Source: a virus. Taken from it: a stretch of DNA of 35,734 bases. Of this stretch, positions 1 through 35,734 are shown piece by piece. The DNA is taken from IMG/VR virus record IMGVR_UViG_3300043184_000065, one strand, 5' to 3'. A program made the translations under genes and the position numbers. The notes beneath the pieces were generated by a model. It was not told the origin of the DNA, did not search any database, and was given only the letters and a program-made list of their open reading frames with translations. Within the stretch, counting starts at the first letter, position 1, and every line of letters starts with the position of its first letter.

Positions 1-115
1 CCCGTGGCCAGCACCGTGGCCAGGCTCACCGCCACCACTGCGCCGACGCCCAGGTCGATCGCCCGGCCGGTGGCGGTCACCGTCGCCCGCGCGACATCGA
101 GCACGCGCGCCCGCA
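1..115. repeat. Terminal direct repeat, copy 1 (identical to 35620-35734); most likely a circular-assembly overlap
   Basis: Base-by-base comparison of cccgtggccagcaccgtggccaggctcacc...gagcacgcgcgcccgca at both ends. Confidence 0.9.
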
Positions 116-305
116 CCACGTCTACCGCCCGGCCCGAGGCCGTCAGCGTCGCCCGCGCGACATCGAGCACGCGCGCACGCACCACGTCCACCAGCCGCCC
201 CGTGGCCAGCACCGTCCCGCGCGGCACGTCGACCACGCGGGCGCGCAGCACCTCCACCAGCCGGCCGGTCGCCAGCGCGGTCGCGCGCGCCACGCTCAGC
301 GTCGT
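1..305 (-). repeat. Coding tandem repeats of 66-69 bp (22-23 aa units T-x-x-A-x-GR-x-VDVVRARVLDVARA); the array continues at about 35470-35619
   Basis: gtcgcccgcgcgacatcgagcacgcgcgc(c/a)cgcaccacgtc occurs at about 83 and about 148, and accagccgccccgtggccagcaccgt at about 191 and 35611. The translated protein shows about six repeat units. Confidence 0.8.
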
Positions 306-1151
306 GCCGCCCGGAGTCGCCGCGCCGATCCACACGCGATCGGGCTCGAACAGCTGCCACGGGTTGGCGCTGAGCGCCCGCAATTCGTGCAGCAGCAACT
401 CGCGGTCCCAAACGGCGGCGAAGGCGATGTCCATGCTCGCCGTGTCAGGCCCCCCCGCATCGGGCCACAACGGATGGTAGCCGATGGCACCAACGCTACC
501 CGACCACAACGAGTTGAAGGTGCCGGCTCGCGGATTGCTGCCATCCGTCACATCTGCCATGGCCGAATTCGGAGTGCCGACGTAAATGCGTGCAGCCGAA
601 AACACGGTCTCAGATGCAGGGTACGTGGCCGCGACCCAATACCATTGATTAGTCGCCACTGTTGTGGTCGAATTAACCCCGTTTGCGGTGAAGTCAACAT
701 CTGCACCGAACCAAAAGCGCGGTAGCCCGCCGGTCACAAAGTCCGTGGTCGAAACGCACAGGGTCGGGGATACCGCCGGACCAACGTCGCGCTGCGTGTA
801 AAGCGTTGCGCCGCGGTCGGTTGCAGCAGAGGAAAATATCGTACCGTTAAAGTCGTTCAGCCGAACCAAGAACAACAGGCTGATCGCGCGGTTCGACGCT
901 GATGCCACGACAGGCGCCCCGGTCGTGACAACGGGTGCGCGCGCCACCTCTCGCGCGCCAATGGCTCGACCGTAGGGCGTCGCCACAGGCACGTAATTGC
1001 CGCCGCCGGGTCTGAACTGCTGGCTGGCAGCGTTTAGCGCGCCGGCGCCATCCGCCAGCATGAGCGCACGCAGGCCACCCGCCGAGGGGTGCGTCGGGTC
1101 CAGCGGCGTGCCCGCAGGCGGCTGCGACGTGCGTGGCAGAGCCAGCCACAT
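1..1151 (-). CDS. LamG / concanavalin-A-like lectin-fold virion protein, 5' portion of a junction-spanning gene (continues 35619..35460; 1311 nt, 436 aa in total)
   Basis: Manual minus-strand translation from ATG 1151 (absent from the ORF track because it runs off the window edge): MWLALPRTSQPPAGTPLDPTHPSAGGLRALMLADGAG... LamG-type motifs NQWYWVAATY..ARIYVGT and AAVWDRELLLHELRALSANPWQLF are present. 1151-104 is divisible by 3, so the frame joins ORF 35460..35723. Confidence 0.75.
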   Translation of the reverse strand, partial: MWLALPRTSQPPAGTPLDPTHPSAGGLRALMLADGAGALNAASQQFRPGGGNYVPVATPYGRAIGAREVARAPVVTTGAPVVASASNRAISLLFLVRLNDFNGTIFSSAATDRGATLYTQRDVGPAVSPTLCVSTTDFVTGGLPRFWFGADVDFTANGVNSTTTVATNQWYWVAATYPASETVFSAARIYVGTPNSAMADVTDGSNPRAGTFNSLWSGSVGAIGYHPLWPDAGGPDTASMDIAFAAVWDRELLLHELRALSANPWQLFEPDRVWIGAATPGGTTLSVARATALATGRLVEVLRARVVDVPRGTVLATGRLVDVVRARVLDVARATLTASGRAVDVVRARVLDVARATVTATGRAIDLGVGAVVAVSLATVLAT

Positions 1152-1154
1152 GGC

Positions 1155-1520
1155 TCAGACTCCGCTGATCTGGTCTGCCCGCGCCTCGACTGTGACGGCC
1201 TGCCCCGTGTTGCCGGTGAACACCACCCGAATGAATCGCAGCGCAGGATTTATTGATAGCTGGAAATCGCCGACGGCGCTGGCCGTCGTGCTGTGGCTGA
1301 TGGTGGGCGTGGCAGCGCGCGCGTTCGTCCCGCTGCTGTCGTCCGCCCGCTCCAGCCGCACGGCGCAGGCTGCGGTTGGCCCGGTGCCGCCGTTGCTGAT
1401 GCGCGCAAACACCACGCCGCCGTAATTCGCGCTGACGTCCAGCCAAGCGCTATTCGTGGTGGCGCCGGCCGCATTGCTGACACTCGCCTGCAGGACTGTG
1501 TTGATTTTTGTCGCGGGCAT
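1155..1520 (-). CDS. Hypothetical small virion-module protein (121 aa)
   Basis: ATG 1520 shares its A with the upstream stop (TGATG), with GGAGG 7 nt upstream. MPATKINTVLQASVSNAAGATTNSAWLDV... is Ser/Thr/Gly/Ala-rich. No family recognised. Confidence 0.65.
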   Translation of the reverse strand: MPATKINTVLQASVSNAAGATTNSAWLDVSANYGGVVFARISNGGTGPTAACAVRLERADDSSGTNARAATPTISHSTTASAVGDFQLSINPALRFIRVVFTGNTGQAVTVEARADQISGV

Positions 1521-2032
1521 CAGAACCTCCTGGTGCCGTCTGGCGCGAACAGCGCGGCCGAGACATCCGCCTCGGTGGCGGCGCGGCCGAGCAGGCGCTG
1601 GGCATCCGTGCCGCGACCAAGAGGCAGGGTCCGAAGTGCGGCGGCGTGTGGCGCGCCGATCCAGCGGGCGTGCTCCAAAGCAGCAATCTGCGCTTCGTAC
1701 TGCGCCATGAAATCCGGCCGCCACAGGTCCAGCTCGGTGCGGTCGCGCAGCACCGAGATCACCGTGAGCGCCAGCACCTTGGCCTCGAAAGCGGCACCCG
1801 ACGGCTCGGCCAGTGTGAGATCAGCACAGGCGGTGATGACGCCCCAGCCGCCCGACGCCTCCAGCACGGCCCGCACCTCGCTGGTGCGCACGGTGCCGGG
1901 GCCCGACGGTGCGTTGACGCGCGCCAAAAATGGCGCAACCACGTCGACCTTATCCGGGTCTGACGAGCGGAACTGCGCCACCAGCTCGGCATAGGCCGGG
2001 GTGGCGAACAGGGTGTGAAGGGCCTCGCTCAT
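1520..2032 (-). CDS. Hypothetical protein (170 aa)
   Basis: ATG 2032 overlaps the upstream stop as ATGA. Sequence: MSEALHTLFATPAYAELVAQFRSSDPDK... The longer track ORF 1520..2524 is an Arg-rich extension overlapping its neighbour. Confidence 0.65.
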   Translation of the reverse strand: MSEALHTLFATPAYAELVAQFRSSDPDKVDVVAPFLARVNAPSGPGTVRTSEVRAVLEASGGWGVITACADLTLAEPSGAAFEAKVLALTVISVLRDRTELDLWRPDFMAQYEAQIAALEHARWIGAPHAAALRTLPLGRGTDAQRLLGRAATEADVSAALFAPDGTRRF

Positions 2033-2478
2033 GGCGTCCTCGTGAAGTCGATCAAGCGGCCGCTGGTGGCGCCCCGGATGGTCAGCGGGCCGGCCACATT
2101 GCCGAAGTCGCTGCCCAGTTGCTCGTAGCCGATCAGCCCGCTGGTCGAGGGCGTGCCGGTGTCGCGCGCCCACACGATGGTGCGGCCGGTGCTGAACCCG
2201 CTGCCGGACTGGGCGATGACGATGTCGTTGTGCGCCCAGCGCACTTCGCCGCTCACCAGCGTCAGGGTCAGCCCCGCACAGGTGATGCCGCCCGCCGTGT
2301 AGTTGGTGCCCGACACCTGGTTGGCGCCAAGGTTCAGGTCGGTGATGACCGCATGCGCCGCGCGGTCGGGCGTGTAGCTGGCGGTGAGGATGATCGCTTT
2401 GATCGTGTCGCTGTCCAGGTCGATCGGACTGCCGTTGACCTGCCGCAGCAGAAAATTGTCGTAGAGCGTCATGGTCAT
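2029..2478 (-). CDS. Hypothetical protein (149 aa)
   Basis: ATG 2478 overlaps the upstream stop (ATGA). Sequence: MTMTLYDNFLLRQVNGSPIDLDSDTIKAIILTASYTPD...GTNYTAGG... Function unknown. Confidence 0.7.
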   Translation of the reverse strand: MTMTLYDNFLLRQVNGSPIDLDSDTIKAIILTASYTPDRAAHAVITDLNLGANQVSGTNYTAGGITCAGLTLTLVSGEVRWAHNDIVIAQSGSGFSTGRTIVWARDTGTPSTSGLIGYEQLGSDFGNVAGPLTIRGATSGRLIDFTRTP

Positions 2479-2696
2479 GCTGGCTGCGCCTCCCGCGCCT
2501 GCTTGAGCGCACGGTAATAGTCACGCCACGCCGTCAGCTCGGCGATCCGCTCGGGCCCCTTGGTGCACTGCGCCAGCGCCGTCTCGAACCGCGCGATGTG
2601 CGCGTCGAGGTCGTCCGGCGCCGGGCCGGACACCACCACGGCGTCCGGATCAGCCGGCGCCGCCGCTTTGAACCATCGAAACACTTTCATGGCCAT
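2475..2696 (-). CDS. Hypothetical small helical protein (73 aa)
   Basis: MAMKVFRWFKAAAPADPD...WRDYYRALKQAREAQPA. Alternative ATG 2690 has better spacing to GAAGGG. Confidence 0.6.
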   Translation of the reverse strand: MAMKVFRWFKAAAPADPDAVVVSGPAPDDLDAHIARFETALAQCTKGPERIAELTAWRDYYRALKQAREAQPA

Positions 2697-2705
2697 CCCT
2701 TCCGG

Positions 2706-3014
2706 TCAGACGTTGGAAATCACCGCGAGGCGCATCGCGGTCAGGCCCGGATCGACCCCGAAGAAGCGGGTGTCGCCAGCGGCCATGCGCGCGTCGGCCG
2801 CTGTGGCCGTGGGCGCCGCGCCGACCCGGTAGGAGCAGATCACATCGCTGTGGATCATCACGAACCGGGTCTTGGCGTTGAACGGCGCACTGAGCGCGCT
2901 CGAGCCGCTGATGGCGATCTTCTGGCTCGCGATCGGCGGTTCTTCCGGCGCCGGCAGCAGCCCGCGCGTGTCGAGCGCCTGGCGGGCATATTCGGAAATG
3001 TAGAGATCAGGCAT
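2706..3014 (-). CDS. Hypothetical protein (102 aa)
   Basis: ATG 3014 is preceded by GAGGAGA with a 5-nt spacer. Sequence: MPDLYISEYARQALDTRGLLPAPEEPP... The track ORF 2706..3173 extension is rejected. Confidence 0.7.
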   Translation of the reverse strand: MPDLYISEYARQALDTRGLLPAPEEPPIASQKIAISGSSALSAPFNAKTRFVMIHSDVICSYRVGAAPTATAADARMAAGDTRFFGVDPGLTAMRLAVISNV

Positions 3015-3024
3015 GACAGTCTCC

Positions 3025-3471
3025 TCAGAACAGGATGGCGCCGCGCGGAAAGCCGTACACCTGCCCGGCCTGCAGCGGCATGCCGTGCAGCACCAGGCAC
3101 TCGGCAACGATGGCGCCGTCCACCACCAGACCGAAAGCGAGCAGCGTCTGACCGGCCGTCTCGGGCCCGACATCGCTGATCGTCACGTCTTGGCGATACA
3201 GCACGCCGTGAGGGCCAACGTCCCAGTCCTCCGGCGCGGCATCGATAGGGTTGAGCCCCGGCAAGACGTCGCCGATCCCGTCCAGCATCACGATCTGGGT
3301 CGGGCGCTGCACAGCCTCACAAACGACCGCGCGCAGCTTGGCCACCAGCCGCTCATAGGCAGCATTGGAGACCCACGGACCAGCAGGCGCCGGATCGTCA
3401 GGTGGTGAGCCCGGGTCCAGCGCCGGATCGTCAGTCGGCGGCGCGGGGGGTGTCTCTTTGGGTTTCGACAT
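3025..3471 (-). CDS. Hypothetical protein (148 aa), Pro/Asp-rich N-terminus
   Basis: ATG 3471 is preceded by AGGAGA with a 6-nt spacer. Alternative ATG 3486 overlaps the upstream stop. Sequence: MSKPKETPPAPPTDDPALDPG... Confidence 0.65.
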   Translation of the reverse strand: MSKPKETPPAPPTDDPALDPGSPPDDPAPAGPWVSNAAYERLVAKLRAVVCEAVQRPTQIVMLDGIGDVLPGLNPIDAAPEDWDVGPHGVLYRQDVTISDVGPETAGQTLLAFGLVVDGAIVAECLVLHGMPLQAGQVYGFPRGAILF

Positions 3472-3482
3472 GGCAGGTCTCC

Positions 3483-3698
3483 TCATTGACCGGTCAGGAT
3501 CTTGGCAGGGGTAGTGGGTGCCTCGGCCCCCATGGGGCCCAGCAGCATGTCGGCCGCCGAACCGCGCCGCTTGCGCAGGTCGCGCTCGACGTCGGCGGCA
3601 ATCGCCGCGTCGTCGCGGCTCACGATCGGCACCGGGGCGGGCCGCTTGGGTGAACTCAGTCCCAGGATGCGGCCGACGCCGCTCACGATACCGGTCAT
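3483..3698 (-). CDS. Hypothetical small protein (71 aa)
   Basis: ATG 3698 overlaps the terL stop (ATGA). Sequence: MTGIVSGVGRILGLSSPKRPAPVP...PAKILTGQ. Confidence 0.55.
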   Translation of the reverse strand: MTGIVSGVGRILGLSSPKRPAPVPIVSRDDAAIAADVERDLRKRRGSAADMLLGPMGAEAPTTPAKILTGQ

Positions 3699-5188
3699 GC
3701 GCTGTCTCCGAAGGGGTGGTAGTCGTCGATCACGCGCACACCACCGCCGACCGGACGGCCGCCCGCCAGCGCGGTGCGGCCTTCGCCGCAGGCCAGGTGG
3801 AGATACTGGTCGGCGTCGGCGATGTGGCTGTAGTGGTTCTTCTGCGGCTTGTTCTCGTAGCGGCCGCCGCCGCACGCCAGCTGCACCCGCTGGTAGACGT
3901 AGCCGCTGTTGTAGGCCCGGCGCAGCACCCGGCAGCGCGGGCTCACCAGCGATCCCGGCTGGCCGTCGATCAGCCGCTTGAGCGGGCCGCGGACCGCCTC
4001 CAGCCGCACGGTCAGGTCGTTGGTGCGCGCCGGGCGGAACGGCACGCGCGTCTGGCGGGCGACGATCTGCATCCAGGTCGGCTCATGGCCCGAGCCATCG
4101 CTGCCGGTGTCGGCCGACGGGTCGCACACGCCCTGCACCTCCAGCCCGTCGAACCGCTCGCGCAGCACCTGCAGGATCATGTCGGCAAACCGGGTCGGCC
4201 CGGCCGCCGTCACCTCGCCGTCCGCACCCGGCAGGATCGCGATTTCGTCCAGCCGGATGATCCGCCCCGTCGCCAGCCGCTGGCCGAACACCGCCGCCGG
4301 GGTGAGTCCCGCGTCCGCGCCGATCAGCAGCGGCAGGCCGCGCACCGGCTGCAGATCGTGCGCCGCCACATGGATCGCGTCGCTGAACTCCGGATAGACC
4401 GGCGTGCCGTTGCGCACCGCCCCGAACTGATTGTCGATCATGCGCCGGATGTAGTCTTGGCTGGCGCCGATCATCTGGACGTCGTAGTAACTCCGGCCCT
4501 CCGGCAGGTTGTGCAGGTTTTCCGCACCCGGCTCGCGCCCACCCGGCTGGCGCCAGAACTTGATCGCGTCGTAACTCAGCGACGGCGGCAGCTCGAAGGC
4601 TCGGTCCACCAGCAACTCATAGGTCCAGCTGTCGGTATCGGGGGCGTTGAAGTCCATGATGATCGCGGCATAGGCACAGCCGCCCAGGCGCGTGGACGGG
4701 TAGCGCCCGATGCGGCCCAGCGCGTACTTCAGCACGTCGCGGTGCAGGCGGTCGGCTTCGTTCAGCCAGAAAATCGTCACCTCCAGCCCGCGCAGCACGT
4801 CCTCGACGCGCTTGTCGCCGATGGCGATGAAGATCATTTCCAGATGCACCAGCGCATCGTCGGACAGCCTGAAGGTCAGCTCGTGGGTGCGCGGGCTGTC
4901 GCCGACCCATTTGCCGACCTCCTTGGGGAACCACGTATGCCAGCTGGCGATCGTGGTTGAGTCGAGTGCCGGATAGGTGTCGCGCACCACGGCAATCCGG
5001 CAGTAGCGGTGACCGTCTGGCGCCGGCGCCTGGCGCAGCGCCGCCATCACGCACTTCTGGATGCACGCAGTCGTTTTCCCGGAGCCCACGGGCCCCATGA
5101 TGGCGTCGATGATCGCGGTCGAGCGCACGAACGCGCCGGCCACCGGGCCGGCCGGATCGAGCGCCAGCAGGTTGGACGCGCCGCTCAC
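3695..5188 (-). CDS. terL: Terminase large subunit
   Basis: 497 aa. Walker A GPVGSGKT, Walker-B-like IFWLNEAD, and C-terminal nuclease-type motifs LLIGADAG, VCDPSA and HIADADQY. Confidence 0.9.
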   Translation of the reverse strand: MSGASNLLALDPAGPVAGAFVRSTAIIDAIMGPVGSGKTTACIQKCVMAALRQAPAPDGHRYCRIAVVRDTYPALDSTTIASWHTWFPKEVGKWVGDSPRTHELTFRLSDDALVHLEMIFIAIGDKRVEDVLRGLEVTIFWLNEADRLHRDVLKYALGRIGRYPSTRLGGCAYAAIIMDFNAPDTDSWTYELLVDRAFELPPSLSYDAIKFWRQPGGREPGAENLHNLPEGRSYYDVQMIGASQDYIRRMIDNQFGAVRNGTPVYPEFSDAIHVAAHDLQPVRGLPLLIGADAGLTPAAVFGQRLATGRIIRLDEIAILPGADGEVTAAGPTRFADMILQVLRERFDGLEVQGVCDPSADTGSDGSGHEPTWMQIVARQTRVPFRPARTNDLTVRLEAVRGPLKRLIDGQPGSLVSPRCRVLRRAYNSGYVYQRVQLACGGGRYENKPQKNHYSHIADADQYLHLACGEGRTALAGGRPVGGGVRVIDDYHPFGDSA

Positions 5189-9651: not shown

Positions 9652-10020
9652 TCATGGCTGCACCGCCAGCTGGGCCATGGGCACCCCGCCCAGCGTCAGG
9701 CCGAGCGTCAGGCCGAGCGCCACGCCGATCAGCACCCCGCCCAGCGCCAGCCCGAGCGTCAGGCCGAGCGCCACGCCGATCAGCACCCCGCCCAGGAACA
9801 CCCGCAGCAGGCCGCGCAGCAGTCGCTGGCGCGGTCCAGCCGGCAGCACCAGTGGATCACGTTCGCGCCACGGGTGGCCAGCCAGCAGCGCTGGCCGCTG
9901 GCTGGCGACAATCTGCTCACCCTGGTGCGACATCAGGGCCGCCGCGCCAGGGTGAGGGGCGAAGCGCCACGCGGCGCAGGCACGGGCCCGAGGGGGGCTC
10001 GAAGGTCCGTCCGCGCTCAT
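9652..10020 (-). CDS. Glycine-zipper membrane protein (122 aa) with an internal 17-aa tandem duplication
   Basis: ATG 10020 overlaps the Cro-like stop (ATGA). C-terminus: FLGGVLIGVALGLTLGLALGGVLIGVALGLTLGLTLGG. 51-bp units lie at 9694-9744 and 9745-9795. GC3 is high in this frame. Confidence 0.6.
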   Translation of the reverse strand: MSADGPSSPPRARACAAWRFAPHPGAAALMSHQGEQIVASQRPALLAGHPWRERDPLVLPAGPRQRLLRGLLRVFLGGVLIGVALGLTLGLALGGVLIGVALGLTLGLTLGGVPMAQLAVQP

Positions 10021-11756: not shown

Positions 11757-12127
11757 CCACAACAGCCATGACCACCTCACCCCGCACCGCCGCCCCCGGC
11801 ACCGCGCGCAGCAGCGCCGATGATGCCGTCTGCGATCTGGTTGGCGCCATCGCCAGCGTGCGTGTGGCCGTCGATCGCGCCGGCACCGCCAGTGCCGATG
11901 CCGCCTGGGCCCGCGCGCGCGCCACGGCGGCCGCCGTGCTGGCGCACCCGCAGGCCGGGCGGCTCTATCGTGGCTGGACCCAGCTGGCCCAGCTGGTGGT
12001 CGACACGCGGCCCGGCGATGCGCTGGGCTTTGCCCATTTGTTCGCGCAATACCGGCTGGTCCTTGCCTCTAGGCTGCTGTGGCAGCCCGGCTGGATGGAC
12101 CGCGCCGACACCGGAGAGGCGGCATGA
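11753..12127 (+). CDS. Hypothetical protein (124 aa)
   Basis: ATG 11753 with GGAGA 7 nt upstream. Sequence: MTTTAMTTSPRTAAPG...FAHLFAQYRLVLASRLLWQPGW. Confidence 0.6.
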   Translation: MTTTAMTTSPRTAAPGTARSSADDAVCDLVGAIASVRVAVDRAGTASADAAWARARATAAAVLAHPQAGRLYRGWTQLAQLVVDTRPGDALGFAHLFAQYRLVLASRLLWQPGWMDRADTGEAA

Positions 12128-13044
12128 TGGTGGCTGAGCAGACGCAGGCGGCCGCGCGGCGCCGGCTGCGTCGGTGGTGGGAGCGCTGGCCGGAGCGGGC
12201 CGAGCAGGCCCGCGCTTTGATGGCGGCGGGGCAGCCGGACGTCGCGATTGCAGAGGCGGTCGGGCTTTCCAAGACGACGGTGTCCCGGTGGCGGCGGGGC
12301 ATCGGCCTGCGTAGGAAGGTCCCCCGGCCGCCGTGGTGGGAGAAAGACCCGTCGCGGGCTGCCGCCGTGCGCGCGGATTACGACGCTGGCGCCATCACTG
12401 GCGTGCTGGCGCAGCGGCACGGCGTGAGCCTGAAGATGGTGCGGCACTGGCTGAAAGCCCACGGTCTCACGTTCCATACACAGTGCGACTGGTCGGTGCG
12501 CTTACCGGAGCTGGCGGCGCTGGCGCGCGCGGCCTATGACAGGCTTGCCACCGACGCCGCCATCGCCGAGCTGTGCGGCCTGAACGTCGAGCAGGTGCGG
12601 CAGTGGCGCAAGCGCCACGAGCTGCCGGCGCACAAGCGCCCGCTGGGCTGGCGTGCGGCGGCGGCGCAGCCCCCCAAGCTGCGGCCGGGCACGCGCGGCG
12701 GCGAACTGACCGCCTCCACCGAGCGGCCGGGCACGCGCGGCGGCGAACTGACCGCCTCCACCGAGCGGCCGGGCACGCGCGGCGGCGGACTGACCGCCTC
12801 CACCGAGCGGCCGACGGAGCGCCAGACCGGTGTGCTGGCCGTGGCCATCCGGGCGCTGCGCACGGCGGGTTACAGCGTGGCGGACGCGCGCATCGCCCAT
12901 TGGCAGGGGGCCATTCCGTCGGGCGCCACGACCCAGTGGCAGGTGGGCCGGCGCGTGCTGAGTGCGCCCGAGCTGCTGCGCCACGCCCTGCGCCACGGCC
13001 GCCTGCTGCCCGACGAGCGCGCCAGCGTGGAGGCGGCGCTGTGA
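12124..13044 (+). CDS. Triple helix-turn-helix DNA-binding protein with a 14-aa x3 tandem repeat linker (306 aa)
   Basis: ATG 12124 overlaps the upstream stop (ATGA). Three HTH-like segments: DVAIAEAVGLSKTTVSRWRR, ITGVLAQRHGVSLKMVRHWLKAHG and DAAIAELCGLNVEQVRQWRKRH. The repeat unit is RPGTRGGELTASTE. Confidence 0.6.
   Translation: MMVAEQTQAAARRRLRRWWERWPERAEQARALMAAGQPDVAIAEAVGLSKTTVSRWRRGIGLRRKVPRPPWWEKDPSRAAAVRADYDAGAITGVLAQRHGVSLKMVRHWLKAHGLTFHTQCDWSVRLPELAALARAAYDRLATDAAIAELCGLNVEQVRQWRKRHELPAHKRPLGWRAAAAQPPKLRPGTRGGELTASTERPGTRGGELTASTERPGTRGGGLTASTERPTERQTGVLAVAIRALRTAGYSVADARIAHWQGAIPSGATTQWQVGRRVLSAPELLRHALRHGRLLPDERASVEAAL
12681..12814 (+). repeat. 42-bp tandem repeat, about 3.2 copies, in frame inside the triple-HTH gene
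   Basis: gcggccgggcacgcgcggcggcgaactgaccgcctccaccga at 12681, 12723 and 12765 (third copy has gaa->gga), plus a partial fourth copy. Confidence 0.9.
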
Positions 13045-14486: not shown

Positions 14487-14762
14487 ATGCCCACCTCGCC
14501 CGTGCTGCTGGCCCTGCTGGCCGACGCTGTCGCCCTGCTCGGCGGCCCGCCGCAGGCCGCCCAGGCGCTGGGCGTCAACGAACGCTCGGTGCGCTACTGG
14601 CTCAGCGGCGCCAAGACGCCCCAGCCAGGGGTTTGGGCCGATCTGGAACGCGCGCTCGAAGATCATGCGCTGCGCTGCCAGCAGATCAAGCGGCTGATCC
14701 GCACCGCCCGCACACACACCTCTCGAACACAGCCGGAAAGCCCCCGCCATGGCCCGCGTTGA
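14487..14762 (+). CDS. Small HTH protein immediately upstream of int (possible excisionase/RDF or regulator, 91 aa)
   Basis: MPTSPVLLALLADAVALLGGPPQAAQALGVNERSVRYWLSGAKTP. It overlaps the int start by 14 nt. Confidence 0.5.
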   Translation: MPTSPVLLALLADAVALLGGPPQAAQALGVNERSVRYWLSGAKTPQPGVWADLERALEDHALRCQQIKRLIRTARTHTSRTQPESPRHGPR

Positions 14763-16077
14763 CATCCCCTATCTGGTCACCAAGCGCAACGGCAACGGCG
14801 CGCTGCGCCACTACTGGCAGCCCTCGGCGGCGCTGCGCCGGGCCGGCTACAAGCCCCAGCGGCTGGCGGACGATCCGCTGCAGGCCGCCATCGCCGCGCA
14901 GGCCATCAACGATGCCCTCGCCAGGGCGCGCGTTGACGCAACGACAACGGCGGCGGCCGCAACGTTTGGGGCGCCGGCCGCAACGCCCCGGCGCATGGCG
15001 ACGCTCGATGCGCTGATTGCCGCCTACCAGGCATCCAGCAGCTGGAGCCACACCCGCAACGGCGCGCCCCGGCCGGCCAGCACCCAGCGCTGGTATGCCA
15101 CCAAGCTGCGGGTGCTGTCGCGCTGGGCCGGCGATACGCCGCTGGATGCCATTGGCCGGGCCGATGTCGCCACGCTGTTCGAGGCGCTGGCCCGGCCGCG
15201 AACCGCCGGTGGCCCGCGCGCGCTGGCCGAAGCCGGCAGCGTGCTGCGGGTCGGGCGCCTGCTGTTCGAATGGGCCTGTGCGCGCGACTGGATCAGCGCC
15301 AATCCGTTCGCCAAGCCGGGCACGCCCCAGGCGGCCGCGCGCCAGGCGCTGTGGAGCCCGGAGGCGATCGACGCCGTGCTGGCGGCCGCCTACCGGCTGG
15401 ATCGCCCGTCGGTGGCGCTGGCGGTGCAGCTGGCACTATGGCTGCTGCAGCGCGAGGGCGACCTGCTCAGCTTCACCTGGAGCCAGATGACCGAGACGGT
15501 GGTGCGCGCCCGCGACGGCCACGAACAGGTGCAGTGGCGCATCCGCTTGCGCCAGAGCAAGACCGGCGCCTGGGTCGACACCCGCCTGCCGGCCGAGCTG
15601 GAAGCCGAGCTGCTGGCACTGCGGCCGCGCACGGCGGCCGAGCGGCTGGCCCGCCCGCACATCCTGGTCAACGAGGCATCCGGCCAGCGCTACACCGGCG
15701 ATGCCTTCCGCCGCCTGTTCCTGGACTGCAGGCAGGCCGCCGTCGCCGGCCACGCCGGCGGCCCGGTGCGGCCCGGTGGCCCCAGCTGGCCGGCACACCC
15801 GCCGTGCCCAGCGGTGGCCGATCTGTGGTTTGCTGACCTGCGGCGCACCGGCATCGTCCGGCTCGCCGAAGCCGGTGTCGACCTGCCCGGCATCACCGCG
15901 CTCAGCGGTCACCAGATCGAACGCACACGGCAGATTCTGGAGGTCTACCTGCCCCGCACCAGCGCCATGGCCGACGCGGCGATCACCCAAATGGAGGCCC
16001 ACCGCCGCGCCCAGACCGCCGCCCAGACGGTCCTCGAAACCAGGGCCCGTTTGACGTCAAACGACACCAGCGTCTGA
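14749..16077 (+). CDS. int: Tyrosine recombinase / phage integrase
   Basis: 442 aa. Catalytic signature in order: LLQREGDL (Arg I), LRQSKTGAWV (Lys), FADLRRTG (Arg II), LSGHQ (His), EVYLPRT (Tyr). The tRNA-fragment attP lies 37 nt downstream. Confidence 0.9.
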   Translation: MARVDIPYLVTKRNGNGALRHYWQPSAALRRAGYKPQRLADDPLQAAIAAQAINDALARARVDATTTAAAATFGAPAATPRRMATLDALIAAYQASSSWSHTRNGAPRPASTQRWYATKLRVLSRWAGDTPLDAIGRADVATLFEALARPRTAGGPRALAEAGSVLRVGRLLFEWACARDWISANPFAKPGTPQAAARQALWSPEAIDAVLAAAYRLDRPSVALAVQLALWLLQREGDLLSFTWSQMTETVVRARDGHEQVQWRIRLRQSKTGAWVDTRLPAELEAELLALRPRTAAERLARPHILVNEASGQRYTGDAFRRLFLDCRQAAVAGHAGGPVRPGGPSWPAHPPCPAVADLWFADLRRTGIVRLAEAGVDLPGITALSGHQIERTRQILEVYLPRTSAMADAAITQMEAHRRAQTAAQTVLETRARLTSNDTSV

Positions 16078-17845: not shown

Positions 17846-19960
17846 TCAGGTCACCCGCACCTGGGCGCCGACGTAATAGGGCAGCCCGCTGCCGCCATCG
17901 TTGGCAACGATCCGCACCGTCTGCGCGCTGCCGGTGCCGTTGGTCCAGCTCAGCGCCGGCACATAGCCCGTCCCGAAGCCGGCAATGCGCTGCACTGCGC
18001 CTGCGTCGATGGCGAACAGGTTGGCAGCGGAGCGCGCGCCGGTGGTCGCGTTGACGCTGTGGCGTTCGATGTCTTCGAGCCACAGCGTGGCGCCGTTGGG
18101 CACGTCCACGCTGGTCAGCACCACGTCCCCTGCACCGGCGCCGCGATAGACCAGCGGGCGGCCGCGCGCGCGCGCCAGCGCCACACGCCACGGCATCAGT
18201 CGCCCGTCGACATCGAACGTGATGCCGACCAGCTGGGAGTCTGCCACCATGCCGTCCGAGCTGGTGCCCGTGTTCGACAGCGCGAAGCTAGTGGCTAGCA
18301 GCAGGCTGTCATGGCCGCCCGGCTTGATGTATTCCACCGCCTTGGTCGACAGGAACGCGTTGGCGCTGATCTCCATGGCAAAGCGCATGTTCTGGGCGAA
18401 GCCGGTCGACGTCTTGCGCAGCAGGATGTCGCGGTCGTTGAACAGGAACTTGTTGCCGATGATCAGCTTTGGCGCGCTGCTGTTCGGGTTGGCCTCGGCG
18501 ATTTCGATGTACAGGCCGGCCGCGTTGGCGGTGGCGCTGGGGTAATTCGCCTGCTTGAGGTTTTCGATTTCGCAGCCCATCACCACCAGAATGGTTTCCT
18601 CATGGACATGCAGGCCCATGGCGGACTCCGACAGGGTCGATCCGATCACCCGCAGCGACCCGCCCGGATAATCCCAGAACACGCAGCCCTGCCGCTGGAA
18701 CAGCATGGTCGAGTCCAGAATGTTGGTCTGCCCGCCGTTGTCGGCCGCGCCGGCCTTGGTGGCGTGAAGCCCCCAGTTGCAGTCCATGAACACGCAGCTG
18801 CGGATCGTGTTGATGTAGGCGATGCCCTGCGCGTCGACGGCGCGGTCGAAGAACCGCACACAGACACGGTCCAGGTCGATGTGGCGGAAGTGGACATTGC
18901 CCGGCGGGGTGGTGCCGGCCGCCAGACTCATGTCGAACCGGATCGCCGCGCCTGTCAACTCCGCCGCCGGCGCCAGCTGATGGCCGCTGCCCAGCAGCTT
19001 CAGGTCGGTGAAGGTCACGCCGAACGCGCCGATCTGGCCGGCGTAGTAGGCCATGGCTGCACCGCCCGGAATCACGCTGAACAGCACGGTCGACGGGGTC
19101 GTCATGCGCACGGTGAAGTCCGCGTCATCCACCTGTGGCGCCGGCGGCGCCGAGATCAGCGCAGGATTGGCCCGGCTGGTGCCCCGGATCGTCACCGGCT
19201 TGCGCACCTGCAGGGGGGCACTGACCAGATGGCCGCGCCCCGCCTGCACGCAGCCGCCGGCCGGGCAGGCATCGAGCGCGCGCTGCCACGCCGCCGTGTC
19301 GTCGGCATCGATCGCCAGCCGATAGTCGACCACATAGGTGGCGCCGCGCGTCAGGGCGTCGGCCAGCGTGCGCGCCGCCGCCGTGGGCGCACCGGGCGCC
19401 AGATAGGCAATCAGCGCAGCGCCCAGGGCGGCCGTCGCCAGGTCCGAGCGCAGTGCGCTGTCAGCGCCCGCTGTGCCGGTCAGCGCCACCGGCGCACCCG
19501 CGCCATCAAAGCCCAGAAACCGCCCGGCCCGCGCACTCGCCGGCGGCAGGGTCGCGCCCAGCGCCGGGTCCGTTTCCGGCAGCAGCAGCGCGCGGCTCAC
19601 ATCATCGTCGACTTCCTGGGCGATCTGGGTCAGCCGATCGAGCGCATCTTCGTGGGTCTGCGCCGGGAACGGATCGTTGGGCACATAGTCGACGGATTGA
19701 GTCCGTGCGGTCTGCCGCCGGATCGACACCGTCGACCCCGCCGCCGGCGCCGTCCCGAACACCACCGTGCCGCCGGGCGTGGCCACCGCGCGCGACACCG
19801 TGTAGTCGACGTTCAGCGTCTGCAGCGTCTCGGCGCCCGCCGCGCTGCGCACCACCACCCGCAGGGCCGCGTCGTCAGCGAACCCGAACGGCACGGCGAA
19901 ACTCCGCGCACTGCCGTCGCCGGCATAGGCGATGCGCCGGGCGAGCGTTGTCACTGTCAT
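17846..19960 (-). CDS. Tailspike / tail fibre: T7 gp17-like N-terminal adaptor domain plus pectate-lyase-like right-handed beta-helix
   Basis: 704 aa. N-terminus IAYAGDGSARSFAVPFGFADDAALRVVV...VDYTV...VSIRRQTARTQSVDY matches the gp17 N-domain pattern. IDADDTAAWQRALDACPAGGCVQAGRGHLVSAPLQVRKPVTIRG is a typical beta-helix depolymerase start. Confidence 0.8.
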   Translation of the reverse strand: MTVTTLARRIAYAGDGSARSFAVPFGFADDAALRVVVRSAAGAETLQTLNVDYTVSRAVATPGGTVVFGTAPAAGSTVSIRRQTARTQSVDYVPNDPFPAQTHEDALDRLTQIAQEVDDDVSRALLLPETDPALGATLPPASARAGRFLGFDGAGAPVALTGTAGADSALRSDLATAALGAALIAYLAPGAPTAAARTLADALTRGATYVVDYRLAIDADDTAAWQRALDACPAGGCVQAGRGHLVSAPLQVRKPVTIRGTSRANPALISAPPAPQVDDADFTVRMTTPSTVLFSVIPGGAAMAYYAGQIGAFGVTFTDLKLLGSGHQLAPAAELTGAAIRFDMSLAAGTTPPGNVHFRHIDLDRVCVRFFDRAVDAQGIAYINTIRSCVFMDCNWGLHATKAGAADNGGQTNILDSTMLFQRQGCVFWDYPGGSLRVIGSTLSESAMGLHVHEETILVVMGCEIENLKQANYPSATANAAGLYIEIAEANPNSSAPKLIIGNKFLFNDRDILLRKTSTGFAQNMRFAMEISANAFLSTKAVEYIKPGGHDSLLLATSFALSNTGTSSDGMVADSQLVGITFDVDGRLMPWRVALARARGRPLVYRGAGAGDVVLTSVDVPNGATLWLEDIERHSVNATTGARSAANLFAIDAGAVQRIAGFGTGYVPALSWTNGTGSAQTVRIVANDGGSGLPYYVGAQVRVT

Positions 19961-33824: not shown

Positions 33825-35456
33825 CTAAACAACAGCGATGCCTTCCGCTTCGGCCGCCTTGGCGATGTTGGCCGCCGCGGCGCTGGCGGCCGGCGCCGCC
33901 TGCAGCAGGGCGGCGGCTTCGGCGGCTTGCGCCTGGGCGGCTTGCTCCTCGGCCAGCTGCTCCGGCGGCTTGAGCCAGCTCGGCGGCACGCCGTTGATGT
34001 CAAACAGCGCCGGGATCACCGTGCCCCAGTCGACGCGGCGGCCGATTTCGGTGGCCACGGCCGGGTCGGCGGCGGCCAGCGGCGTCAGCTGCTCGAAGGT
34101 GCGCAGCAGGCCCACCGCCTGGCCCGCGCGCGCGGCGCGGTTGAGCGGATTGTCGAAGGTGATGCGGTATTCGCCATTGGCTTCGGCCAGCTCGGGCGGC
34201 ATCGGCGGCAGCAGGCCGGCGCGCGCGTCCAGGTCGATTTCCCGCTCGACCATCGGCGCCAGCAGCTCCTCTTCGAGCGCGCCGCCGGCGGGCGCCAGCA
34301 GCACGCCCTTCTCGCGCAGCCGCTCCAGCACTTCCGTGGCGGTCTGCCGGTCGGGCTGCTCCACCAGCACCTGGAACAGCGTGATCAGGAACGCGTCGTT
34401 GATCACGCGCCGGTTCTGTTCCTGCGCCTCGAAGCCGATCGGCAGGTTGCCGCCGGTCTGCAGCGGCTGCACCAGCATCTCGCCGCGCGCGCTGATGCCG
34501 CCCACATTGACCTTGCCAGGCGCGGTGTTGAGCTTGGTCAGCACGCCGTCGTCGGCCACCAGCAGCGCCGGATCGACCGCCTTGTGCGCGGCCTTCATGA
34601 TCGTCTTGGCCATTTCGTTGGCGAGCTTGATTTCGGGCAGCACCTGCATGGCGATTGAGGTGCCGTAGGTGTCGTCCGCATCGCCGCCGGCGCGGTGCAC
34701 CAGCAGCGGCAGCGTGTAATAGCCGCCGTCGGCGATCACCGCCTTGGACGCTGGCAACACAGTCAGCGAGCGCAACGCCATGCCGCGCGGACCCGGGGCG
34801 CCCTCATCATGGTCGGCACGCGGGAAGATGGCGTGCAGCACCTCGACCTCGGCCTCGGGCTGGGTCTCGGCCAGCGCGCGCACGTCGCCCGGCACCCGCT
34901 CGCCCCACTGCGCCAGCACCTTGCGCGCCGGCCAGCGCCATTTGCGGTGCACGATCGTCGCCCGGTCAAAGGGATCGGTTGCCAGGTAAATCTGCGGCGT
35001 CGGGATCGCGCGATAGATGCGGCCAACGCCCGGCAGCTGGTCGACGAACAGCCCGGCGGTGCCGTAGGCCGCAGCCCCCTTGACGAAGCGCTCGAAGCGC
35101 CGGGCGAAGCTGGCCCGCGCGCCGTAGCGCGCCGTGAACAGCTGCTCGCTCACCGCCTCGAAATAGGCCCGCACGCGCGGCCGGCGGTTGAGCGCGGCGT
35201 CGGTGGTCGCCAGCTGGTGCCAGCGCTCGGTCCGGGGCGCGATCATCGCGATCAGCGCGGCGGCATAGCGGTCGAGCGCCAGCATGGCGGTCGAGTCCAG
35301 TCGGTCCTGGGTGCGCGTGTCGCCGGGCACCGTGGTGCGCTGGAACTCCGCACCGTAGGGGAAGATGCGCCGCTGAATTGCATCCCAATGCGCTTCGTAG
35401 GGGTTGCGGATTTTTTCCATATCGGCCTGGCGCCGCAGCAGCTGCTCAATATCCAT
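33825..35456 (-). CDS. Portal (head-to-tail connector) protein, T7 gp8-like family
   Basis: 543 aa. N-terminus RNPYEAHWDAIQRRIFPYG parallels T7 gp8 RAPYETRAQNCAQYTIP. Ala/Gln-rich C-terminal tail. The gene starts 4 nt after the LamG gene stop. Confidence 0.8.
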   Translation of the reverse strand: MDIEQLLRRQADMEKIRNPYEAHWDAIQRRIFPYGAEFQRTTVPGDTRTQDRLDSTAMLALDRYAAALIAMIAPRTERWHQLATTDAALNRRPRVRAYFEAVSEQLFTARYGARASFARRFERFVKGAAAYGTAGLFVDQLPGVGRIYRAIPTPQIYLATDPFDRATIVHRKWRWPARKVLAQWGERVPGDVRALAETQPEAEVEVLHAIFPRADHDEGAPGPRGMALRSLTVLPASKAVIADGGYYTLPLLVHRAGGDADDTYGTSIAMQVLPEIKLANEMAKTIMKAAHKAVDPALLVADDGVLTKLNTAPGKVNVGGISARGEMLVQPLQTGGNLPIGFEAQEQNRRVINDAFLITLFQVLVEQPDRQTATEVLERLREKGVLLAPAGGALEEELLAPMVEREIDLDARAGLLPPMPPELAEANGEYRITFDNPLNRAARAGQAVGLLRTFEQLTPLAAADPAVATEIGRRVDWGTVIPALFDINGVPPSWLKPPEQLAEEQAAQAQAAEAAALLQAAPAASAAAANIAKAAEAEGIAVV

Positions 35457-35459
35457 GGT

Positions 35460-35734
35460 TCACCGTCCCATCAGTCGGCCAAGGTTTGCAATCAGCAGCG
35501 TGGCGAGCCGGCGCGCCCCGCCTGCCAGCACCGTGAACACCTGCACCGCGCGCCCGCCGGCGGTCGCTGTCGCCCGCACCACCGCCAGCACGGTGCTGCG
35601 CACCACGCTCACCAGCCGCCCCGTGGCCAGCACCGTGGCCAGGCTCACCGCCACCACTGCGCCGACGCCCAGGTCGATCGCCCGGCCGGTGGCGGTCACC
35701 GTCGCCCGCGCGACATCGAGCACGCGCGCCCGCA
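35460..35734 (-). CDS. 3' portion of the junction-spanning LamG-repeat gene (stop TGA 35460-35462)
   Basis: Track ORF 35460..35723 (…ATGRLVSVVRSTVLAVVRATATAGGRAVQVF…LGRLMGR) is in frame with the minus-strand reading of 1..1151 once 35620-35734 is collapsed onto 1-115. Confidence 0.75.
   Translation of the reverse strand, partial: RARVLDVARATVTATGRAIDLGVGAVVAVSLATVLATGRLVSVVRSTVLAVVRATATAGGRAVQVFTVLAGGARRLATLLIANLGRLMGR
35620..35734. repeat. Terminal direct repeat, copy 2 (identical to 1-115)
   Basis: Exact 115-nt match to the window start. Confidence 0.9.

What the first reader, a model, noticed from the sequence alone, without database searches (positions are those of the whole stretch)
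1..1151. LamG-fold protein with about six 22-aa amphipathic Arg/Val repeats at its C-terminus and a markedly low-GC lectin core
This 436-aa protein combines a LamG/ConA-like domain with a C-terminal array of units such as TLTASGRAVDVVRARVLDVARA, and it ends in a hydrophobic tail (RRLATLLIANLGRLMGR). I do not recognise this repeat from the fibre-repeat families I know. Its helix-turn periodicity of 22 residues resembles amphipathic helical repeats more than beta-fibre repeats. The DNA repeats are nearly identical, which implies recent expansion or contraction. The lectin core (about 540-860) is about 52-55% GC by my counts, against about 70% elsewhere, which suggests a recently imported binding domain. 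The gene sits between terL and the portal gene, not among the tail genes.
Basis: partly seen in the sequence, partly recalled or inferred. Interest (0 to 1): 0.65.

Follow-up and report, generated by a model that had tools for sequence, protein, structure and literature searches.

The report
Phage lectin protein with beta-strand repeats
A temperate freshwater phage encodes a sugar-binding-type (LamG) protein followed by a variable-length stalk of 22-residue beta-strand repeats; the repeat type is common in phages but has never been catalogued, and it broke the assembly here, so the repeat count in this window is too low.

Summary
The gene is real. It lies on the minus strand (1151->1, continuing 35619->35460) between terL and the portal gene of a BPP-1/BcepC6B-like temperate podophage.

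Confirmed:
- The LamG fold, by homologue profiles, a profile search of the PDB, and AlphaFold/Foldseek.
- The 66-nt/22-aa repeat.
- The low-GC lectin core: 57.6% against 71.6% for the genome, with GC3 0.55-0.70 against >0.9.

Corrected:
- The repeats are predicted to be about 20-residue beta strands, not amphipathic helices.
- They are not unique. An exhaustive search finds 365 protein clusters, and 107 of the top 150 have a 22-residue period. No Pfam, PHROGs or NCBIfam model covers the repeat.
- Units within the window are only 55-88% identical at DNA level.
- The window's 115-nt "terminal overlap" is the longest exact stretch shared by two copies of a 198-nt (three-unit) duplication. A 99.2-99.9% identical contig resolves this duplication and gives 502 aa, not 436. 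Contigs of the matching run carry the second block too.

The gene belongs to a conserved cassette (phrog_644-like + phrog_5707-like + LamG/repeat) that sits at different places in the structural modules of different phages. The most likely role is an accessory virion adhesin. Its location on the virion (head or tail) is unresolved.

The parts
1..1151 (-). 5' part of the gene (codons 1-383 and the first two bases of codon 384): N-terminal motif, LamG domain, linker and first repeats
   Evidence: identical to residues 1-384 of the 502-aa protein of L020
35460..35619 (-). 3' end of the gene (last repeats, C-terminal tail, stop codon 35460-35462); 3 nt upstream of the portal start at 35456
   Evidence: P0002 is the 87-aa fragment called from this contig end
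915..1151 (-). N-terminal region (aa 1-79) with the family motif W-x-x-Q-P-P...D-x-x-H-P
   Evidence: alignment A2
336..914 (-). LamG / ConA-like beta-sandwich domain (about aa 80-272)
490..910 (-). Low-GC, low-GC3 core of the lectin domain (about aa 81-220), probably acquired by recombination from a donor of about 60% GC
348..365 (-). Conserved linker NPWQLF between the lectin domain and the repeats
   Evidence: 88 of 150 relatives carry the motif
1..329 (-). 22-aa (66-nt) repeat array, upstream part (aa 275-383 and the start of codon 384)
35487..35619 (-). 22-aa repeat array, downstream part (aa 385-428, last unit degenerate)
35463..35522 (-). Short hydrophobic/basic C-terminal tail (GGARRLATLLIANLGRLMGR); low-confidence helix in the model
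1..115 (.). 115-nt stretch identical to 35620-35734. It is the longest exact run shared by the two copies of a 198-nt three-unit duplication, not a true genome-end overlap. This end of the window is copy A.
35620..35734 (.). Second copy of the 115-nt stretch (copy B, followed by the array's last units). About 83 nt between the two copies are missing from the window.
1155..1520 (-). Upstream partner gene, 121 aa, phrog_5707-like beta-rich protein. It sits directly upstream of the LamG/repeat gene in several independent loci.
2029..2478 (-). Cassette partner, 149 aa, phrog_644 family (homologues: phiCbK gp75, MiniFlayer gp6)
1520..3698 (-). Remainder of the terL-portal insertion: six ORFs of 71, 148, 102, 73, 149 and 170 aa (the 149-aa ORF is the phrog_644 partner listed above), co-oriented and tightly packed with the target
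   Evidence: relatives have only 1-2 small ORFs here

Best explanation
The gene encodes a late-operon accessory adhesin that is probably part of the virion.

Layout, from N to C:
- A family-specific N-terminal motif.
- A LamG/ConA-like lectin domain.
- The linker NPWQLF.
- An array of 22-residue units, each predicted to form one long beta strand ending in a Gly turn. Neighbouring units pair into an extended beta-meander stalk, which in the real protein is probably oligomeric.
- A short basic/hydrophobic tail.

Shown:
- The array is a diverged, Arg/Val/Ala-rich (high-GC-coded) member of a widespread but uncatalogued phage repeat family.
- Array length changes by gain or loss of whole units. In this phage population a three-unit (198-nt) block is duplicated, giving 502 aa. 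The assembler broke the contig inside that duplication, so the merged window shows 436 aa.
- The gene travels with a phrog_644-like gene and a phrog_5707-like gene as a cassette. The cassette sits at different positions in the structural modules of different phages.

Inferred:
- The central part of the lectin domain was replaced by recombination with a lower-GC donor, a swap of binding specificity.
- The protein binds glycan.
- The protein is incorporated into the virion.
- The repeats act as a spacer or attachment stalk.
For: - Gene and operon: tight coupling with the upstream gene and the portal gene.
- LamG fold.
- Beta repeats: AF2 on the full protein (pLDDT 60-70 in the array). AF2 on the C-terminal region with a 59-sequence alignment (pLDDT 81-87 in the array core).
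- Family: 365 clusters at E<=1e-3; 107 of 150 have period 22; arrays run from 3 to 32 units with a median of 9.
- The array is an autonomous module: a repeat-only 196-aa protein at L026 7061-7651, and split repeat and LamG genes in L030.
- Copy-number change: L020 is 99.2-99.9% identical and its protein is 66 aa longer. The 115-nt window overlap occurs twice in L020, 198 nt apart, and equals the longest exact run between the two blocks.
- Same run: Logan contigs show the shared stretch at depth 500 against 281-295 for the flanks. A 92-nt contig (depth 186) carries four substitutions at exactly the positions (window 167, 171, 174, 177) where the second block of L020 differs.
- Cassette. It sits at a different site in a related podovirus (L026, between the MCP and tail tubular A genes) and between portal and scaffold in L030.
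- Partners in other cassettes are depolymerase-like or lectin-like: pectate lyase in L026, and phiCbK gp76 next to gp75.
- Composition.
Against: - There is no direct evidence of virion incorporation or glycan binding.
- The phage already has a canonical tail-fibre gene with a podovirus N-terminal adaptor domain (17846-19960). The target has no such adaptor.
- The AF2 repeat model is a monomer of moderate confidence and has no PDB analogue (best Foldseek E=0.63). The true quaternary fold may differ.
- Pfam Laminin_G_3 is below its gathering score on the query itself (18.1 against 27.6 bits).
- Contig depths from Logan are rough, so the ratio of one-block to two-block alleles is uncertain.
Confidence: 0.55

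Rival explanations
1. Head fibre or capsid decoration: the protein is anchored on the capsid through its C-terminal array and tail or through the phrog_644 partner, and projects the lectin domain outward, as proposed for the phiCbK head filament or as in T4 Hoc.
For: - In the window the cassette lies among head genes, between terL and portal. In L030 it lies between portal and scaffold/MCP.
- phrog_644 homologues directly follow the MCP gene in MiniFlayer. In phiCbK the homologue directly precedes gp76, a 2,799-aa ConA-like lectin protein with tandem duplications that was proposed as the head filament (PMC3556154).
- The binding domain is N-terminal and the repeats C-terminal, the reverse of most tail fibres.
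Against: - phiCbK gp76 was never detected in virions and does not match the family profile.
- In L023 and L026 the cassette lies next to tail or depolymerase genes.
- One Gordonia phage homologue of phrog_644 is annotated as a minor tail protein.
- Gene position is weak evidence in mosaic phages.
Confidence: 0.2
2. Accessory tail or side fibre: the protein attaches to the tail or adaptor, perhaps via the small cassette proteins, and acts as a second receptor-binding protein beside the canonical fibre.
For: - In a related podovirus (L026) a repeat-only protein is encoded just before the tail tubular A gene, in a cassette with a pectate-lyase-like protein.
- In L023 the gene precedes a 1,219-aa beta-rich protein with a similar C-terminal DPDAGT motif.
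- Foldseek viral hits include proteins named tail fibre or minor tail protein.
Against: - No N-terminal tail-adaptor domain. The phage has its own fibre gene with that domain.
- In the window the gene is far from the tail genes.
Confidence: 0.2
3. One reading: the 22-aa units are amphipathic helix-turn repeats, and the C-terminal tail is a hydrophobic anchor.
For: The units are rich in Arg, Val, Ala and Leu. The hydrophobic moment peaks at 130-140 degrees, between the helix and strand values. AF2 places a low-confidence helix only in the last 11-15 residues.
Against: - Both AF2 runs give beta strands for every unit.
- Val+Thr+Gly make up 44% of the array.
- Canonical relatives read G-S-Y-x-L-T-G-Q-x-A-x-L, which is typical beta sequence.
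- The tail is basic and too short and too polar for a membrane span. Family tails are diverse, short and basic.
Confidence: 0.04
4. The repeat array, or the whole junction-spanning protein, is an assembly artefact.
For: The window's ends lie inside the array. The 'overlap' used to join them is an internal repeat. Two Logan contigs of the same run also break there.
Against: - The same gene is internal and uninterrupted in an independent JGI contig.
- The array has homologues in hundreds of proteins.
- GC3 of 0.9-1.0 shows a real reading frame.
- Only the unit count is affected.
Confidence: 0.03

Closest known systems
Laminin_G_3 (PF13385) / ConA-like lectin-domain proteins of tailed phages (e.g. 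'Concanavalin A-like lectin/glucanases superfamily' proteins of uncultured Caudovirales, A0A6J5LYG3)
   Same: The same beta-sandwich fold, shown by profile and by structure. These domains are common in phage structural modules.
   Different: The query is below Pfam's threshold on its own. It carries a family-specific N-terminal motif and the NPWQxF linker. It is fused to a 22-aa repeat array that no library describes.
Caulobacter phage phiCbK gp75-gp76 (gp76 = proposed head filament; PMC3556154)
   Same: A phrog_644 protein (gp75, 38% identical to window 2029-2478) sits directly upstream of a ConA-like lectin protein that has expanded by tandem duplications, close to the head genes.
   Different: gp76 is 2,799 aa and Gly-rich. 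It does not match the LamG/repeat family profile. Its role as head filament is itself unproven.
Fibre-shaft beta repeats (adenovirus/reovirus triple beta-spiral; T4 long-tail-fibre repeats)
   Same: Short tandem beta-strand units with conserved Gly turns that build an extended stalk carrying a binding domain. Unit number varies among relatives. This comparison rests on my own knowledge.
   Different: The period is 22 rather than about 15. The binding domain is N-terminal. There is no sequence or Foldseek match. Oligomeric state is untested.
T4 Hoc-type capsid decoration adhesins
   Same: Works-like comparison only: exposed N-terminal binding domains with a C-terminal attachment region, dispensable for assembly (my own knowledge; review PMC7602432 was found but not read).
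   Different: Ig-like domains rather than LamG. No homology. Capsid attachment is not shown here.
Bordetella phage BPP-1 Mtd and its diversity-generating retroelement (the variable receptor binder known in this phage lineage)
   Same: The same podophage lineage: portal, Bbp19-like gene, MCP and tail-tube genes. Both are variable host-binding lectin-type proteins.
   Different: Mtd has a C-type-lectin fold and varies through a template/variable repeat pair and a reverse transcriptase. No such repeat pair is present in the window. No reverse transcriptase turned up among the window proteins that were scanned, but not every ORF was scanned.

Membership tests
LamG / ConA-like lectin superfamily (Pfam Laminin_G_3) | Sequence match to the family HMM at or above the curated gathering score | tested here: not met
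   The query scores 18.1 bits against a cut-off of 27.6 (E=0.003), over aa 142-252. Homologues pass: P0012 81.1 bits, P0005 32.7, P0051 28.4.
LamG / ConA-like lectin superfamily (Pfam Laminin_G_3) | Two-sheet jelly-roll beta-sandwich fold | tested here: met
   In the AF2 model most 10-residue blocks of aa 80-270 have pLDDT 70-96. Foldseek gives probability 1.0 to BoNT/TeNT HC-N lectin-like domains, trypanosomal sialidase lectin domains and viral ConA-like proteins. The family profile against the PDB gives 4qvs at 1.7e-10, plus pentraxins and sialidases.
LamG / ConA-like lectin superfamily (Pfam Laminin_G_3) | Carbohydrate (or Ca2+) binding site | not testable with these tools
   No ligand-site analysis was possible. 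This needs glycan arrays or a structure.
Unnamed 22-residue phage repeat family (defined here hits) | Tandem units with a period of 22 residues | tested here: met
   TRF period 66 nt. Units align in register. 107 of 150 relatives have period 22.
Unnamed 22-residue phage repeat family (defined here hits) | Conserved Gly at the end of each unit (...L-T-G) | tested here: met
   In alignment A3 the Gly at position 73 of the first sequence (the window's residues 268-436) is invariant, and those at positions 29, 51, 95 and 117 are at least 90% conserved. These are the ATG/ASG/AGG unit ends of the window protein.
Unnamed 22-residue phage repeat family (defined here hits) | Second conserved Gly and an aromatic residue (G-x-Y/F-x-L-T-G) | tested here: not met
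   Window units read A-R-A-T-L-T-A-S-G. A single-unit HMM built from canonical units finds only one unit in the query. The window array belongs to a diverged Arg/Val-rich subgroup with P0005.
Unnamed 22-residue phage repeat family (defined here hits) | LamG-to-repeat linker N-P-W-Q-x-F | tested here: met
   ANPWQLF at aa 262-268. A linker-like motif is found in 88 of 150 relatives.
Right-handed parallel beta-helix (e.g. Pfam Cthe_2159, pectate-lyase-like) | HMM or fold match of the repeat array to a beta-helix | tested here: inconclusive
   Only sub-threshold Cthe_2159 hits, in two homologues (24.4 and 19.2 bits against 25.8). Foldseek of the repeat model lists beta-helix proteins at E>=0.6 and probability <=0.13. 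AF2 gives a meander, not a solenoid.
Podovirus tail fibre/spike (T7 gp17-type N-terminal adaptor) | N-terminal tail-attachment domain | tested here: not met
   No PHROG tail family hits the target. The domain is present instead in window 17846-19960 (phrog_1640 8e-34 and others).
DGR-diversified receptor binder (BPP-1 Mtd type) | Template/variable repeat pair plus reverse transcriptase | tested here: not met
   No long imperfect direct-repeat pair involves the gene other than its own tandem array. No reverse transcriptase was seen among the proteins scanned, but not every ORF was scanned.

The most novel reading that the evidence does not exclude
The 22-residue beta-strand array, with its phrog_644-like and phrog_5707-like partners, may define an undescribed mobile 'plug-in adhesin' cassette. 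The cassette would insert into the head-gene clusters of unrelated phages: BPP-1-like podophages, phiCbK-like siphophages and the satellite MiniFlayer. It would build a capsid-borne fibre whose reach is tuned by rapid gain and loss of repeat units and whose lectin head is swapped by recombination. That would make it a general genetic basis for phage head fibres, including the long-sought phiCbK head filament system.
Probability: 0.15. Interest if true: 0.75.

Novelty: new variant of a known kind. Interest (0 to 1): 0.45.

Why it matters
Lectin-domain appendages decide which surfaces a phage sticks to. Three things follow from this finding.
- This repeat family is abundant in metagenomic phages, yet no protein-family library covers it. 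Naming it and modelling it would annotate hundreds of 'hypothetical' structural genes.
- The conserved cassette gives a testable handle on accessory fibres, and possibly on head fibres.
- An internal tandem duplication here mimics the terminal overlap that is used to call viral contigs 'circular/complete'. It silently deletes 198 nt (66 aa) from a host-interaction gene. The same error probably occurs in other repeat-bearing phage genes.

Tried and rejected
Searches that led nowhere:
- Word-indexed homologue searches found nothing useful: the full protein, the A2 profile and the N-terminal 282 aa. Repeat words probably swamp the candidate list. The exhaustive search was needed.
- tblastn of the query against 50,697 phage records gave no match. 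Only the canonical relative P0012 found 7 records.
- Pfam, PHROGs and NCBIfam gave nothing for the repeats, even for canonical or repeat-only proteins.
- Foldseek of the repeat-only model against the PDB gave no significant analogue.
- PDB sequence searches with three of the neighbouring genes (149, 121 and 170 aa) gave nothing.
- The 255-aa ORF upstream of the portal gene in the closest GenBank phage is unrelated.
- The search for related loci with the A2 profile failed because no stretch was conserved enough.
- The genome-contig scan gave one distant MAG hit and no host.
The two-block form could therefore be checked only through its variant letters on the window.
- Three literature searches found no description of the repeat.

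Ideas rejected:
- Helical repeats.
- A DGR target.
- A membrane anchor.
- A glucanase-type ConA-fold enzyme. I saw no acidic catalytic motif by eye, but this was not formally tested.
- A separate promoter- or terminator-bounded moron. No such signals were found.
Full report
**What is in the sequence.** The two ends of the window share an exact 115-nt stretch (1-115 = 35620-35734). An ORF on the minus strand starts at ATG 1151-1149 and runs off the left end. The gene directly follows a 121-aa ORF (1155-1520) and ends 3 nt before the portal start (35456). No promoter-like or terminator-like signal separates them. GC3 of 0.90-1.00 in the repeat part shows that this is the coding frame. The antisense ORFs listed there are by-products of the high GC content.

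**The phage.** The genome is about 35.6-35.8 kb and 71.6% GC. It is a temperate podophage of the BPP-1/BcepC6B/RpY1 type.
- Portal, PF12236 (7e-87).
- A Bbp19-like gene and a scaffold gene.
- T7-type MCP, PF19821.
- Tail tubular A and B, and internal virion proteins.
- A canonical tail-fibre gene with a podovirus N-terminal adaptor domain (17846-19960).
- terL (3695-5188), two primase-like proteins and an integrase (14749-16077).

In BcepC6B, RpY1 and the closest GenBank relative, terL and the portal gene are separated by only one or two small ORFs. Here they are separated by eight co-oriented genes, and the target is the last and largest.

**Lectin domain.** On the query alone, Pfam Laminin_G_3 is sub-threshold (18.1 bits, E=0.003). 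The exhaustive HMMER search found 365 clusters at E<=1e-3. Members that align over the same region pass Pfam clearly (P0012, 1.2e-22). A profile of 30 family members hits LamG-type PDB chains: 4qvs at 1.7e-10, plus pentraxins, sialidase lectin domains and pappalysin. In the AlphaFold model most 10-residue blocks of residues 80-270 have pLDDT 70-96. Foldseek places the model with ConA-like lectin domains at probability 1.0 in both the PDB and the viral library. The LamG assignment therefore stands.

**Repeats.** TRF finds a period of 66 nt (score 260). In protein terms, residues 275-428 form 5 clear and 2 degenerate 22-aa units, for example RLVDVVRARVLDVARATLTASG.

The repeats are not unique. 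Of the top 150 relatives, 107 have a 22-residue period, and arrays run from 3 to 32 units with a median of 9. The canonical unit reads roughly G-x-Y-x-L-T-G-Q-x-A-x-L-x-x-x-R-x-L-x-A-x-x. The window's units are a diverged version rich in Arg, Val and Ala. They keep the terminal Gly and the R-x-(V/L) core but lose the G-x-Y motif. This composition fits a 72% GC genome.

The array can stand alone. A podovirus related to this one has a 196-aa protein made only of repeats (L026 7061-7651). Another contig encodes the repeats and the LamG domain as separate neighbouring genes (L030). No Pfam, PHROGs or NCBIfam model matches the array, even in canonical members.

**Helix or strand.** Two AlphaFold runs gave one beta strand of about 20 residues per unit, with turns at the conserved Gly, forming an antiparallel meander. 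One run used the full protein. The other used the C-terminal 169 residues with a 59-sequence alignment, and reached pLDDT 81-87 in the array core. Only the last 11 or so residues are helical, at low confidence. The monomer model has no PDB analogue (best E=0.63), so the real and probably oligomeric architecture is still open. The helical reading is not supported.

**Unit number and the contig ends.** A JGI contig (3300043244, 36,005 nt; L020/L033) is 99.2-99.9% identical to the window. It carries the gene internally, and the protein is 502 aa. The sequence is identical except for one extra 66-aa block of three units.
- In that contig the two 198-nt blocks differ at 7 positions.
- Their longest exact shared run is 115 nt.
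- This run is letter for letter the window's terminal 'overlap'. It occurs at L020 2525 and 2723.
- The sequence next to the window's left end is that of block A. The sequence next to its right end is what follows block B.

The window is therefore a contig that broke at both branch points of an internal duplication. Merging the ends deletes 198 nt.

One public run (a freshwater metagenome) holds the sequence, and its Logan contigs agree with this picture.
- Two long contigs also end in the array.
- The shared stretch has depth 500, against 281-295 for the flanks.
- A 92-nt contig at depth 186 carries four substitutions, at window 167, 171, 174 and 177. These are exactly the positions where block B of L020 differs from block A.

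The second block is thus present in the same sample. The depth ratio of about 0.64 suggests a mixture of one-block and two-block alleles. Contig depths are too rough to be sure.

It also supports the underlying idea of recent expansion, since the duplicated blocks are 96.5% identical.

**Composition.** Region 540-860 is 57.6% GC, not 52-55%. Over residues 81-220, GC3 is 0.55-0.70. The N-terminal 80 residues, the C-terminal part of the domain and the repeats have normal GC3 (0.72-1.0). The other cassette genes also look native. Homologues come from contigs of 60-62% GC, and their LamG regions have the same GC (55-59%) and GC3 (mostly 0.6-0.7). The simplest reading is replacement of the central, ligand-facing part of the domain by recombination with a lower-GC relative. 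No close donor was found.

**Cassette.** The 149-aa gene at 2029-2478 belongs to phrog_644 (3e-19). The 121-aa gene at 1155-1520 resembles phrog_5707.
- HMMs built here find a phrog_644-like gene on the same strand, within a few kb of a LamG/repeat gene, in ten independent loci besides the window lineage.
- They find the 121-aa type directly upstream of the LamG/repeat gene in L018, L023, L024 and L006, and three genes upstream of the repeat gene in L030.
- The cassette's position differs between phages. It is between terL and portal here, between portal and scaffold/MCP in L030, and between the MCP region and tail tubular A in L026. L026 has MCP and tube proteins homologous to the window's, and its cassette also carries a pectate-lyase-like gene. 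In L023 the cassette lies before a 1,219-aa beta-rich protein.
- Cultured-phage homologues of phrog_644 include MiniFlayer gp6, right after the MCP gene, and phiCbK gp75. gp75 sits directly upstream of gp76, a 2,799-aa ConA-like lectin protein with tandem duplications that Gill et al. proposed as the head filament (PMC3556154). gp76 does not match the present family profile.

**Function.** Several facts point to an accessory, virion-associated adhesin whose stalk length and lectin head both evolve quickly:
- late-operon placement;
- a lectin fold;
- a length-variable beta stalk;
- depolymerase-like or lectin-like companions in sister cassettes;
- a separate canonical fibre gene elsewhere in the genome.

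Whether the protein sits on the head or on the tail cannot be decided from sequence. Head placement is favoured by gene position here and in L030, by the reversed domain order, and by the phiCbK and MiniFlayer synteny. Tail placement is favoured by L026, L023 and some annotations. I rate the general adhesin reading at about 0.55. Within it, head and tail are about equally likely.

**Novelty and score.** Phage LamG proteins are ordinary. The repeat family and its cassette are widespread but undescribed. The case where a false 'terminal repeat' hides a copy-number change is instructive. This is a new variant of a known kind, of moderate interest (0.45).

Noticed in passing
window 1-115 and 35620-35734: The exact 115-nt end overlap would pass as a direct terminal repeat or circularisation signature. 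It is actually an internal tandem-duplication segment, so merging the ends removes 198 nt from a gene.
   Followed up: yes
window 12681-12813 (in ORF 12079-13044, +): Three nearly perfect 42-nt tandem copies (98-100% identical) encode (RPGTRGGELTASTE)x3 in a 321-aa protein of the early/regulatory region.
   Followed up: partly
window 9681-9795 (in ORF 9652-10020, -): A 51-nt tandem repeat (2.3 copies, 96% matches) encodes a glycine-zipper-like hydrophobic segment (GVLIGVALGLTLGLxLG twice) in a 122-aa protein. It may be a small membrane or lysis protein.
   Followed up: no
window 14749-16077 (+): An integrase (phrog_1, 1e-19) on the strand opposite to the structural genes, so the phage is temperate. 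No host could be assigned. The genome scan gave only one distant MAG hit.
   Followed up: partly
window 2029-2478 (-); L027 8001-8417; L028 5186-5620: The phrog_644 family links this cassette to phiCbK gp75, which lies next to the proposed head-filament gene gp76, and to gp6 of the satellite phage MiniFlayer, which lies right after its MCP gene. The family has no known function.
   Followed up: partly
L030 3910-8795: In an IMG/VR contig the cassette lies between the portal and scaffold/MCP genes. It encodes the 22-aa repeats (328-aa protein, repeats N-terminal) and a LamG-like domain (281 aa) as separate adjacent genes, after a 305-aa Gly-rich protein.
   Followed up: partly
L025 6017-7906 (Microcystis phage Mel-JY03): A protein annotated as glycerophosphodiester phosphodiesterase has a Gly-rich N-terminal half and a long C-terminal array of about 20-aa units (VRVAGxASGTLxLTGSATGA) related to the 22-aa family. 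The annotation may be worth re-examining.
   Followed up: no
P0003, P0024, P0031, P0063, P0075 and others: Many relatives are tandem arrays of two to six LamG units with no 22-aa repeats. Each unit begins with the W-x-x-Q-P motif and ends with NPWQxF, so these motifs mark module boundaries.
   Followed up: partly
L023 10103-13762 and P0051 C-terminus: The LamG/repeat protein P0051 and the following 1,219-aa protein both end in a (V/I)DPDAGT(V/L)xI motif. This may be a shared docking or maturation signal.
   Followed up: no
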